The position numbers were made by a program. A stretch of DNA of 64,000 nt from Haliotis rufescens (Eukaryota): positions 24,986,001 to 25,050,000 of the forward strand of contig NW_025964223.1 in NCBI RefSeq assembly GCF_023055435.1. Direction: 5' to 3'. Below are positions 23,201 to 26,200 of this stretch, in pieces (the stretch's first letter is position 1; each line of letters starts with the position of its first letter).

Positions 23201-26200
23201 CCAGACAGAGTGTAGGTGTCTATATCAGGCCCAGACACAGTGCAGGTGTCTATGTCAGGCCCAGACACAGTGCCGGTGTCTATGTCAGGCCCAGACACAG
23301 TGCAGGTGTCTCTGTCAGGTTCAGATACAGTGCAGTTGACTATGTCAGGCCCAGACACAGTGCAAGTGTCCATGCCTGCCTTATCATGTAGCTATCATCC
23401 AGTGTAAATATCTTGGACATGCCTTATCATCGCTATATTTTGTGAAACTATTATGGGCCTGCCTTATTGTGTTTACGCTATTATCGCTATTGTGGGCGTG
23501 CCTTATCGTGTCGCTACATCCTGTGTATTCCAAATGGGCGTGCCGTATCATGTAGCTACGTTCTTTCTTTTCTGAATAGGCGTGCCTTATCGTGTAGCTA
23601 CATCGCGTGTATATTAAATGGACGTGCTTTGACATGTAGCTACATCCTGTGTATATTAAACAGACGTGCTTTAACATGTAGCTACATCCTGTGTATATTA
23701 AAAAGGCGTGCCGTATCATGTAGCTACACTCTGTGTATATTAAAGGGACGTGTTTTATCATGTAGCTATATCCTGTGTATATGAAATGGGCGTGCCTTAT
23801 CATGTCGCTACATCCTGTGTATATTAAATGGGCGTGCCTTATCATGTAGCTGCATCCTGTGTATATTAAATGGGCGTGCCTTATCATGTAGCTACACTCT
23901 GTGTATATGAAATGGGCGTGCCTTATCATGTCGCTACATCCTGTGTATATTAAATGGGTGTGCCTTATCATGTAGCTGCATCCTGCGTATATTAAATGGG
24001 TGTGCCTTATCATGTAGCTACATCCTGTGTATATTACATGGGCGTGCCTTATCATGTAGCTACATCCTGTGTATATGAAATGGTCTTGCCTTCTCATGTA
24101 GCTACATCCTGTGTATATGAAATGTTCGTGCCTTATCGTGTAGCTACATCCTGTGTATATTAAATGGGCGTGCCTTATCATGTCGCTACACCCTGTGTAT
24201 ATGAAATTGGCGTGCCTTCTCATGTAGCTACATCCTGTGTATATGAAATGTTCGTGCCTTATCGTGTAGCTACATCCTGTGTATATTAAATGGGCGTGCC
24301 TTATCATGTCGCTACATCCTGTGTAAATTACATGGGCGGGCCTTATCATGTAGCTACATCCTGTGTATATGAAATGGTCTTGCCTTCTCATGTAGCTACA
24401 TCCTGTGTATATGAAATGTTCGTGCCTTATCGTGTAGCTACATCCTGTGTATATTAAATGGGCGTGCCTTATCATGTCGCTACACCCTGTGTATATGAAA
24501 TTGGCGTGCCTTCTCATGTAGCTACATCCTGTGTATATGAAATGTTCGTGCCTTATCGTGTAGCTACATCCTGTGTATATTAAATGGGCGTGCCTTATCA
24601 TGTCGCTACATCCTGTGTAAATTACATGGGCGGGCCTTATCATGTCGCTACATCCTGTGTAAATTACATGGGCGGGCCTCATCGTGTAGCTACATCCTGT
24701 GTATGTTAAATGGGCGTGCCTTATCATGTAGGTACATCCTGTGTATATGAAATAGGCGTGCCTTATCATGTAGCTACATCCTGTGTACATTAAATGGTCG
24801 TGCCTTATCATGTCGCTACATCCTGTGTATATTAAATGGGTTTGCCTTATCATGTAGCGACATCCTGTGTATATTAAATGGTCGTGCCTTATCATGTAGC
24901 TACATCCTGTGTATATTAAATGGGCGTGCCTTATCATGTAGCTACATCCTGTGTATGTTAAATGGGCGTGCCATATCATGTAGCTACATCCTGTGTATAT
25001 TAAATGGTCGTGCCTTATCATGTAGCTACATCCTGTGTATATGAAATGGGCATGCCTTATCATGTAGCTACATCCTGTGTATATTAAATGGTCTTGCGTT
25101 ATCACGTAGCTACATCCTGTGTATATTAAATGGTCGTGTTTTATCATGTAACTACATACTGTGTATATTAAGTGGTCGTGCTTTATAATTTAGCTACATC
25201 AAATGGTTATTTAATGGTCGTGTTTTATCATGTAGCTACACACTGTGTAAATTAAGTGGTCGTGCCTTATTATGTAGCTACACTCTGTCTATATTAACGG
25301 TCGTGCCTTTTCATGTAGCTACATCCTGTGTATATTAAATGGTCGTGCCTTATCATGTAGCTACATCCTGTGTATATGAAATGGGCATGCCTTATCATGT
25401 TGCTACATCCTGTGTATATAAAATGGCCTTGCGTCATCACGTAGCTACATCCTGTGTATATTAAATGGTCGTGTTTTATCATGTAACTTCACACTGTGTA
25501 TATTAAGTGGTCGTGCTTTATAATTTAGCTACATCAAATGGTTATTTAATGGTCGTGTTTTATCATGTAGCTACACACTGTGTAAATTAAGTGGTCGTGC
25601 CTTATTATGTAGCTACACTCTGTCTATATTAACGGTCGTGCCTTATCATGTAGCTACATCCTGTGTATATTAAATGGTCGTGCCTTATCGTGTTGCTACA
25701 CTCTGTCTATATTAATGGTCGTGCCTTATCATGTAGCTACATCCTGTGTATATTAAATGGTCGTGCCTTATCGTGTAGCTACACTCTGTCTATATTAATG
25801 GTCGTGCCTTATCATGTAGCTACATCCTGTGTATATTAAATGAGCGTGCCTTATCATGTAGCTACATCAAATGTTTTTTTAATGGTCGTGCCTTATCATG
25901 TAGCTACACCCTGTGTATATTAATGGTCGTGCCTTTTCATATAGCTGTAGCTGGTGTTTATCAAATGTTATCTTGTAGCTACATCCGATGCATGTTATTT
26001 GGGCGTGTCTCCTCATGTACCTACATCTCATGTATATTTAGTGGACGTCCGTCTTCATGTAGCCTGTGTATCGTGAATAGGGTAATCTATTTACCTTGAG
26101 GTTGTGTGCCTGATCCCGTAAATACTAGTATCATATTACCTGCTTTATTCTGAATGTATTACACATACATTAATTTATTTTCCAAAGGTACCTGTCATGT

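What the first reader, a model, noticed from the sequence alone, without database searches (positions are those of the whole stretch)
23378..26070. Middle paralog B is a C-5'/A-3' chimera with its crossover inside the 42-bp satellite
Seen: B's promoter, introns, exons, 30-mer array end and first ~500 bp of 42-mer array (23378-23880) match C (32320-32820). From about 24110 its 42-mer variants and all downstream unique sequence (MITE, Tc1, SINE) match A, whereas C's 3' flank (40300-41800) is clearly diverged. Inference: an ancestral A-C pair gave A-[C/A]-C by unequal exchange at about 23880-24110, so the satellite acts as a built-in gene copy-number engine.
Basis: partly seen in the sequence, partly recalled or inferred. 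Interest (0 to 1): 0.75.

Follow-up and report, generated by a model that had tools for sequence, protein, structure and literature searches.

The report
Hybrid satellite marks abalone gene duplication
In red abalone DNA, a 9-kb block holding one gene of unknown function was copied in tandem by an exchange between two look-alike 42-bp repeat arrays, which is a clean but ordinary example of how repeats create extra gene copies.

Summary
The window is Haliotis rufescens. It holds three paralogs of an uncharacterised serine-rich gene, each followed by a 30-mer array and then a 42-mer array.

- **B matches C on the 5' side.** This covers upstream sequence, exons, introns, the end of the 30-mer array, three degenerate junction monomers and the first 12 monomers. 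In 23378-23881 there are 4 mismatches in 504 bp.
- **B matches A on the 3' side.** A-type variants begin at 24037-24125. From 24710 B is collinear with A, and the 3' flank is 99.4% identical.
- **C's 3' flank is an old paralog.** It is only 76-80% identical.
- **The switch lies at 24002-24125.**

The simplest reading is one homology-guided unequal exchange between the A and C arrays, which duplicated about 9.1 kb. The two unit copies differ at 24 of 5321 unique sites.

Two things remain untested. One is whether the copy is real or an assembly artefact, which needs reads. The other is the "copy-number engine" generalisation, which rests on a single event. The mechanism is textbook.

The parts
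10986..13228 (+). Gene A coding span (LOC124112933, 455 aa). Its exon 1 has its own N-terminus and an expanded 132-bp coding repeat.
   Evidence: P0007 is 100% identical over 10986-12107 and 13127-13225; 132-bp repeat at 11193-11597.
13244..14649 (+). A 30-mer array (46.9 copies), starting 16 bp after the stop codon.
14649..16418 (+). A 42-mer array (42.3 copies). It lacks the three degenerate junction monomers that B and C share.
16419..22207 (+). Unique part of duplicated unit copy 1: the A 3' flank, the intergenic stretch and gene B.
17663..18548 (-). Internally deleted Tc1-like element in the A 3' flank. Its copy lies at about 27192-28077.
   Evidence: 24-nt inverted arms. HTH_Tnp_Tc3_2, E 3.4e-9, on 17879-18235(-). 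One search gives the offset of 9529.
18677..19110 (.). 434-bp stretch present only in unit copy 1. A 5-bp microhomology sits at its edges and there is no target-site duplication. Inferred to be a deletion in copy 2.
20423..22192 (+). Gene B coding span: exons 20423-21161, 21460-21515, 21827-21914 and 22092-22192 (TAG at 22190-22192). It is C-type throughout.
22208..23370 (+). B 30-mer array (38.8 copies). Its two ends are syntenic with C and its interior is reshuffled.
23378..24001 (+). C-type part of the B 42-mer array. Monomers 0-11 are syntenic with C 32320-32823. Monomers 12-14 carry C-type variants but are not syntenic.
24002..24125 (.). Interval holding the C-to-A switch, i.e. the junction of the duplication.
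   Evidence: the last C-type variant is at 24001 and the first firm A-type variant is at 24125; register unbroken.
24046..24645 (+). B-specific amplification of an A-type block. There is an exact 306-bp direct duplication, 24046-24351 = 24340-24645.
24710..25946 (+). Part of the B 42-mer array that is collinear with A 14971-16418, with indels of whole monomers.
25947..31269 (+). Unique part of duplicated unit copy 2: the B 3' flank, the intergenic stretch and gene C.
29516..31254 (+). Gene C coding span (LOC124112385, 327 aa).
   Evidence: P0002 is 100% identical over 29516-30253 and 31153-31251.
31270..32312 (+). C 30-mer array (34.8 copies).
32435..40191 (+). C 42-mer array (184.9 copies), with a higher-order period of 56 and 115 monomers.
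40192..40868 (+). C 3' flank, an old paralog of the A/B flank at 76-80% identity.

Best explanation
An ancestral chromosome carried two old tandem paralogs, A and C, each ending in a 30-mer array followed by a 42-mer array.

The arrays of A and C paired out of register by one gene unit. An exchange guided by their homology took place within the first kilobase of both 42-mer arrays: about 15 monomers into C's and about 2-4 monomers into A's. It may have been a crossover between chromatids or homologs, or a break-induced copying event.

The product carries a tandem duplication of about 9.1 kb. It runs: the rest of the A array, the A 3' flank, the intergenic stretch, the gene, the 30-mer array, and the start of the C array. 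The middle gene B therefore has C's promoter, exons, introns and array start, and A's array remainder and 3' flank.

Shown here: the mosaic, the single junction, the preserved register, and the equal age of both halves of the unit.

Inferred: the direction (A-C to A-B-C) and the type of exchange.

Changes since the event:
- 24 substitutions in unique sequence.
- A 434-bp deletion.
- Monomer-scale indels in the arrays.
- A perfect 306-bp duplication inside B's array.
- A damaged intron-2 splice donor in B.
For: - **Unit copies.** Copy 1 against copy 2 has 24 substitutions in 5321 aligned unique sites (0.45%). No copy-specific sequence separates them apart from a 434-bp indel, a 31-bp indel and small ones.
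- **B groups with C in the gene.** 226 sites against 4 and 4.
- **Array junction.** B and C share three degenerate junction monomers that A lacks.
- **C-type part.** B monomers 0-11 match syntenic C at 41-42 of 42, against a background of 0.26% of pairs reaching 41.
- **Diagnostic variants.** C-type variants run to 24001: T17 is in 0/40 A and 24/168 C monomers; G35+T36 is in 1 A and 29 C. A-type variants follow: T34 is in 3/40 A and 0/168 C.
- **A-type part.** A beats C in 31 of 31 windows from 24715. The monomer chain B36-63 against A18-44 has 13 mismatches in 1092 bp.
- **Register.** All 32 successive monomer spacings from B3 to B35 are exactly 42 bp. Random breakpoints would keep the register about 1 time in 42.
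- **Equal age.** The A-derived and C-derived halves are equally diverged (Fisher p = 0.54).
- **Old A-C pair.** The A and C flanks are 76-80% identical and collinear, so the A-C pair is much older.
- **No gap.** There is no N anywhere in the window. Gaps between the copies are one of four stated hallmarks of false duplications (PMC9516828, passages).
Against: - Present-day A and C arrays are about 85% alike and share no exact run longer than 61 bp (3 runs of 55 bp or more). They are a poor substrate for classical homologous crossover.
- B monomers 12-16 match neither parent in order.
- Substitution density is uneven over the three unique segments: 12/2257, 4/2293 and 8/771 (chi-square p = 0.006).
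- The interior of B's 30-mer array is far from a clean copy of C's. There are 24 mismatches in 870 bp of matched monomers, plus about ten monomer gaps.
- The divergence between copies (0.45%) is below the species' reported heterozygosity of 1.37% (PMC9709998, passages). It therefore cannot separate paralogs from alleles.
- None of the five H. rufescens proteins returned carries B's own last-exon residues.
Confidence: 0.78

Rival explanations
1. Assembly artefact. The animal has only A and C, and the two haplotypes of the 9-kb stretch were laid down in tandem, with the false join inside the satellite.
For: - Copy divergence is 0.45%, below the reported heterozygosity of 1.37%.
- The indels and array length differences look like ordinary allelic variation.
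- No B-specific protein is among the returned records.
- The assembly paper says some scaffold gaps were closed with reads, so the absence of N is not proof.
Against: - There is no N in the window.
- The likely source assembly is PacBio HiFi, with read N50 15.8 kb, 50.8x coverage, hifiasm Hi-C mode and BUSCO duplicated 0.4%. Reads of that length can span the whole B unit, which is 9.5 kb from flank to flank.
- A false join needs a long, near-identical overlap. A-type and C-type arrays share no exact run longer than 61 bp. This argument is inference and was not tested on reads.
Confidence: 0.12
2. B is an old third paralog that was overwritten by two gene conversions: one from C over its 5' part and one from A over its 3' part.
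For: Gene conversion does act at this locus. A against B/C divergence collapses 3' of B 21790, with 4 B=C, A-differs sites in 434 bp, against 15-42 such sites per 100 bp in the introns just upstream.
Against: - The two tracts would have to cover all 9 kb, meet each other inside the array, and also meet at the far ends.
- No B-specific unique sequence is left anywhere.
- Both halves have the same divergence.
Confidence: 0.04
3. A tandem duplication by non-homologous end joining or microhomology-mediated copying, whose two breakpoints fell in the arrays by chance.
For: - The 42-mer arrays make up a large share of the local sequence.
- Exact A-C identity is short.
Against: - The junction keeps the 42-bp register exactly.
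- No foreign or deleted bases are visible.
- Both breakpoints lie within the first kilobase of their arrays, as expected if the paralogous genes and arrays had paired.
Confidence: 0.04

Closest known systems
Tandem gene duplication by unequal crossing-over (non-allelic homologous recombination) between direct repeats. Examples are human alpha-globin triplication, the red/green opsin arrays and Drosophila Bar. These are recalled, not read here.
   Same: - Direct repeats flank the unit.
- The junction repeat is a hybrid of the distal and proximal copies.
- The copies are contiguous and equally old.
- A reciprocal deletion is predicted.
   Different: - The substrates are short-unit (42-bp) tandem arrays lying just after the stop codon of each paralog. 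They are not transposons or long segmental duplications.
- Present-day identity between the substrates is only about 85%.
Satellite-associated expansion of a gene family: the Dox family of the Drosophila simulans clade with the 359-bp satellite (Muirhead and Presgraves 2021). This is recalled. In search the title phrase appeared only a few times per paper in the papers listed. I did not open them, so I take these to be citations, and the paper itself was not read.
   Same: Satellite arrays next to the gene copies are proposed to be the sites of ectopic exchange that multiplies the gene.
   Different: - Here the event is a local tandem duplication with a fully resolved hybrid array.
- There is one event, and the gene has no known function.
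Heterotype false duplication in genome assemblies (Ko et al. 2022, PMC9516828; passages read).
   Same: Two adjacent, nearly identical copies whose divergence is within the range of heterozygosity.
   Different: - There is no gap between the copies.
- Read depth, read pairs and k-mer copy number could not be examined.
Higher-order repeat formation and turnover within minisatellite and satellite arrays by unequal exchange (general knowledge, recalled).
   Same: - Whole-monomer indels between B and A.
- An exact 306-bp duplication in B.
- A period of 56 and 115 monomers in C.
   Different: The exchange of interest is between the arrays of two different genes, so it changes gene number and not only array length.

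Membership tests
Tandem duplication by unequal homologous exchange (NAHR) | Homologous direct repeats lie at both ends of the duplicated unit. | tested here: met
   42-mer arrays follow A and C in the same orientation.
Tandem duplication by unequal homologous exchange (NAHR) | The single novel junction lies in a hybrid repeat, with distal-type sequence 5' and proximal-type sequence 3'. | tested here: met
   B is C-type to 24001 and A-type from 24125 at the latest.
Tandem duplication by unequal homologous exchange (NAHR) | The junction is in register, with no inserted or lost bases. | tested here: met
   32 of 32 monomer spacings from B3 to B35 are 42 bp.
Tandem duplication by unequal homologous exchange (NAHR) | The unit copies are contiguous and of one age. 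| tested here: met
   The two halves are 12/2257 against 12/3064, p = 0.54. However, the three unique segments are heterogeneous, p = 0.006.
Tandem duplication by unequal homologous exchange (NAHR) | A long tract of near-identity between the substrates at the exchange point. | tested here: inconclusive
   Today's A and C arrays share exact runs of at most 61 bp. The arrays as they were at the time of the event are unknown.
Tandem duplication by unequal homologous exchange (NAHR) | The reciprocal deletion allele or copy-number polymorphism exists in the population. | not testable with these tools
   No reads, other assemblies or eukaryotic contig collection could be reached.
Heterotype false duplication (assembly artefact) | A gap lies between the duplicated pair. 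| tested here: not met
   There are 0 N in 64000 bases. Caveat: some gaps of the likely source assembly were closed with reads.
Heterotype false duplication (assembly artefact) | Half read depth, single-copy k-mers and discordant read pairs. | not testable with these tools
   No read data.
Heterotype false duplication (assembly artefact) | Divergence between the copies is within the allelic range. | tested here: met
   0.45% against a heterozygosity of 1.37%. This is compatible with the artefact but not specific to it.
Gene-conversion mosaic | Converted tracts are bounded by unconverted sequence of the copy itself. | tested here: not met
   B has no unique sequence of its own in 9 kb. A separate, older A-to-B/C tract 3' of 21790 does show such a boundary.

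The most novel reading that the evidence does not exclude
The paired 30-mer and 42-mer arrays behind the stop codon are a standing feature of this Haliotis-restricted gene family. At least five loci are annotated on one chromosome. On this reading the arrays recurrently drive both copy-number change and concerted evolution of the gene's 3' end. The three-gene arrangement would then be one allele of a copy-number polymorphism that still segregates in red abalone, since copy divergence (0.45%) is below average allelic divergence (1.37%).
Probability: 0.3. Interest if true: 0.5.

Novelty: new member of a known kind. Interest (0 to 1): 0.3.

Why it matters
If real, this is a fully resolved junction of a very young gene duplication in a mollusc. 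Both parental repeat arrays are still present beside it. That allows three things to be read off one locus:
- the position of the exchange, to within about 120 bp;
- the order of later events;
- the relative rates of array turnover against point substitution.

It also flags a locus where copy number may vary among red abalone, a species of conservation concern. The mechanism itself is textbook and the gene has no known function, so the wider significance is modest.

Tried and rejected
- **Fixed-diagonal comparison.** It lost the A match because of whole-monomer indels. I replaced it with best-window, exact-run and monomer-level alignments.
- **Global monomer alignment of B12-63 against A.** It forced weak pairs (35-40 of 42) in B13-B35. 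Only the chain B36-63 was used for counting, and the other rows are described but not counted.
- **Pfam on the exon translations.** Nothing reached a curated cut-off. Exon 1 gave two hits at E 0.14 and 0.21, and the other two pieces gave none, so the gene's function stays unknown.
- **Pfam on a second Tc1-like ORF, 17686-17997(-).** No family was found.
- **ARAGORN.** It found 0 tRNA-like genes, so the 'SINE' label is unsupported by that test. The 'MITE' label was not tested beyond one 35-nt inverted pair at 17463-17571.
- **Search for a recombination-friendly tract of A-C identity near the junction.** Nothing was found there.
- **Test of whether B's 30-mer interior derives from A.** Of 37 windows of 90 bp, A was better in 20, C in 13, and 4 tied. 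The margins were 1-5 of 90 and the order was not consistent, so I treat this as array turnover and not as a second mosaic.
- **Literature (terms abalone, satellite DNA, Haliotis).** 16 papers held the terms and 10 were listed. None deals with this locus by title or abstract. This is the only basis for saying I found nothing in print.

Left unchecked:
So no other copy of this abalone locus, no alternate haplotype and no related species' locus was examined.
Those of PMC9709998 might hold assembly quality data that bear on the artefact question.

The spliced gene model was searched exon by exon. Exon 1 alone went to the protein search, and single-exon or single-ORF translations went to Pfam. The joined step was left out, so I could not look up whether B's full protein is annotated.
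Full report
**What the window is.** The translated first exon of the middle gene is 100% identical to XP_048240201.1, 'uncharacterized protein LOC124112385' of Haliotis rufescens, on a contig of 63,335,689 bp. The search gave 4 hits among 1273 candidates; the others came from H. rufescens, H. cracherodii and H. rubra. The window is therefore red abalone, not human. It holds no N.

The spliced model was searched exon by exon and the joined step was left out.

- Gene A is LOC124112933 (455 aa). It is 100% identical over 10986-12107 and 13127-13225.
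- Gene C is LOC124112385. It is 100% identical over 29516-30253 and 31153-31251.
- Three further paralogs (LOC124112476, LOC125373238, LOC125373240) lie on a contig of the same recorded length, taken to be the same chromosome, but not in the window.
- Pfam finds no family above cut-off.

**Anatomy.** Each gene has four coding exons. For B these are 20423-21161, 21460-21515, 21827-21914 and 22092-22192.

The stop codon lies 16 bp before a 30-mer array, which is followed by a 42-mer array. No AATAAA or ATTAAA occurs between the stop codon and the 42-mer array. The first ATTAAA is inside it, at 14674 in A, 23613 in B and 32597 in C. I infer that the 30-mer array may be 3' UTR.

**Check of the observation in unique sequence.** With the arrays masked, self-BLAST gave these matches:

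| Stretch 1 | Stretch 2 | Identity |
|---|---|---|
| 16419-18676 | 25947-28205 | 99.4% |
| 19110-21404 | 28205-30497 | 99.74% |
| 21415-22207 | 30477-31269 | 98.5% |
| 23371-23492 | 32313-32434 | 99.2% |

- A's gene is 92.7-97.5% identical to B and C, and A's upstream sequence does not align.
- Global alignment of the two unit copies gives 16 substitutions and 3 gaps (1, 434 and 2 bp) over 16419-21404. It gives 8 substitutions and 3 gaps (31, 1 and 1 bp) over 21405-22207.
- Three-way variable sites in the gene are 226 (B=C), 4 (A=B), 4 (A=C) and 1 (all different).
- C's 3' flank matches the A/B flank only at 16818-17018 = 40429-40631 (76%) and 17133-17223 = 40782-40868 (80%). These patches are collinear.

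**Check inside the 42-mer array.** I cut the arrays into 45 (A), 64 (B) and 190 (C) monomers. For B and C this count includes three degenerate junction monomers that A lacks.

- **B0-11 (23378-23881).** These match their syntenic C monomers at 41-42 of 42, with 4 mismatches in 504 bp. Only 0.26% of 2268 non-syntenic pairs reach 41. Exact syntenic runs end at 23870.
- **B12-14.** These are not syntenic with today's C but carry C-type variants. T17 is in 0/40 A and 24/168 C monomers. G35+T36 is in 1 A and 29 C. G13+G35+T36 is in 0 A and 5 C.
- **B15.** It carries C30+G35, found in 2 A and 0 C monomers.
- **B17.** It carries T34, found in 3/40 A and 0/168 C monomers.

From 24104, B holds four copies of an 80-bp exact match to A 14827-14906. 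24710-24829 equals A 14971-15090.

From 24715, A beats C in 31 of 31 windows of 84 bp (63 windows in all). In the 20 windows from 23875 to 24673 the two are close, A 76-82 and C 75-81.

B36-63 chain to A18-44 with 13 mismatches in 1092 bp, one A-only monomer and two B-only monomers.

Per-monomer votes were as follows:

| B monomers | C better | A better | Tie |
|---|---|---|---|
| B0-11 | 12 | 0 | 0 |
| B12-16 (weak margins) | 5 | 0 | 0 |
| B17-31 | 3 | 12 | 0 |
| B32-63 | 1 | 23 | 8 |

**Mechanism.** The A-B spacer and the B-C spacer are the same sequence with nothing in between. B is therefore the junction copy of one tandem duplication of about 9.1 kb whose two ends lie in the A and C arrays.

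- The junction keeps the 42-bp register: 32 of 32 spacings are 42 bp. This points to a homology-guided exchange rather than random breakage.
- The A-derived and C-derived halves of the unit are equally diverged (Fisher p = 0.54), as a single event predicts.
- Both breakpoints are within the first kilobase of their arrays, as expected if gene A paired with gene C one unit out of register.
- The A-C pair itself is far older. The flanks are 76-80% identical, and introns 1-2 have 13-42 differences per 100 bp.

**Later events.**
- A 434-bp stretch (18677-19110) is missing from copy 2. It has a 5-bp microhomology at its edges and no target-site duplication.
- There is an exact 306-bp duplication inside B's array.
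- There are whole-monomer indels against A.
- B's intron-2 donor reads GTCTG-C, where A and C read GTGAGT.
- There are three amino-acid differences between B and C in exons 3-4. Two are derived in C and one in B, by comparison with A.

**Points against, or unexplained.**
- Today's A and C arrays share no exact run longer than 61 bp.
- Substitution density is uneven across the unique segments (p = 0.006).
- The arrays have diverged faster than unique sequence: 17/1596 against 24/5321 (p = 0.008).
- The interior of B's 30-mer array (22508-23078) is not syntenic with C. The best monomer alignment has 24 mismatches in 870 bp and about ten gaps.

**Artefact question.** The likely source assembly is described in PMC9709998 (passages read):
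- PacBio HiFi reads with N50 15.8 kb at 50.8x coverage;
- hifiasm in Hi-C mode;
- heterozygosity 1.37%;
- BUSCO duplicated 0.4%;
- some gaps closed with reads.

Ko et al. (PMC9516828, passages) list four hallmarks of false duplications: half depth, gaps between the pair, discordant read pairs and single-copy k-mers. Only the gap criterion could be tested here, and it is not met. Copy divergence of 0.45% is below the heterozygosity, so it does not discriminate. I put the artefact at about 0.12.

**Comparison and verdict.** This is a new, well-resolved member of a known kind: tandem gene duplication by unequal exchange between direct repeats. It has the less common feature that the repeats are short-unit arrays directly behind each paralog's stop codon.

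A sharp drop of A against B/C divergence 3' of 21790 shows that the array-proximal end of the gene also undergoes conversion. That fits the idea that the arrays promote exchange between paralogs. The 'copy-number engine' claim nevertheless rests on one event.

Interest is 0.3.

Noticed in passing
window 21516-21521 (compare 12469-12474 and 30578-30583): B alone has an altered intron-2 splice donor. A and C read GTGAGT after CAG, whereas B reads GTCTG-C, which is two substitutions and a 1-bp deletion. B may splice differently or be decaying.
   Followed up: partly
window 22092-22192: None of the five H. rufescens proteins returned carries B's own last-exon residues. B's last exon is 93.9% identical to P0002 and 97.0% to P0007. 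Whether B is annotated at all could not be looked up, because the exons were not joined.
   Followed up: partly
window 21791-22224 against 12827-13260: A against B/C divergence collapses to 4 sites in 434 bp, including non-coding intron 3. Just upstream there are 13-42 differences per 100 bp. This looks like an older gene-conversion tract abutting the 30-mer array.
   Followed up: partly
window 10986-11597: Gene A has a different N-terminus (10986-11147, unrelated to B/C upstream sequence). It also has 3.1 copies of a 132-bp (44-aa) coding repeat, against about 2 in B and C.
   Followed up: no
window 22508-23078 against 31270-32312: The interiors of the B and C 30-mer arrays differ far more than their flanks: 24/870 mismatches in matched monomers, about ten monomer gaps and a 120-bp length difference. 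Turnover appears rapid, and the cause is not established.
   Followed up: partly
window 32435-40191: C's 42-mer array has a higher-order period of 56 and 115 monomers. The 2352-bp shift gives 91.3% identity over 5.4 kb. The array is roughly three copies of a block of about 2.35 kb.
   Followed up: partly
all 42-mer and 30-mer arrays: The 42-mer consensus holds a perfect 12-bp palindrome, intact in 14, 21 and 71 monomers of A, B and C. The 30-mer holds a hairpin with a 6-bp stem and a 7-nt loop, in 33, 27 and 23 monomers. These are possible sites of slippage or breakage, but they were not tested.
   Followed up: no
window 5347-7304: An unrelated 39-mer array of 50.2 copies at 95% identity lies upstream of gene A. 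It is open in two + frames (ORFs 5314-7383 and 5342-7306).
   Followed up: no
window 8422-8682, 18317-18523, 27846-28052, 58866-59123: An interspersed repeat of about 200-260 bp is present in four places at 82-88% identity.
   Followed up: partly
outside the window, taken to be the same chromosome (same recorded contig length): Three more paralogs are annotated: LOC124112476 (324 aa), LOC125373238 (327 aa) and LOC125373240 (267 aa). Single homologs were returned for H. cracherodii (277 aa, 89% identity) and H. rubra (367 aa, 62%).
   Followed up: no
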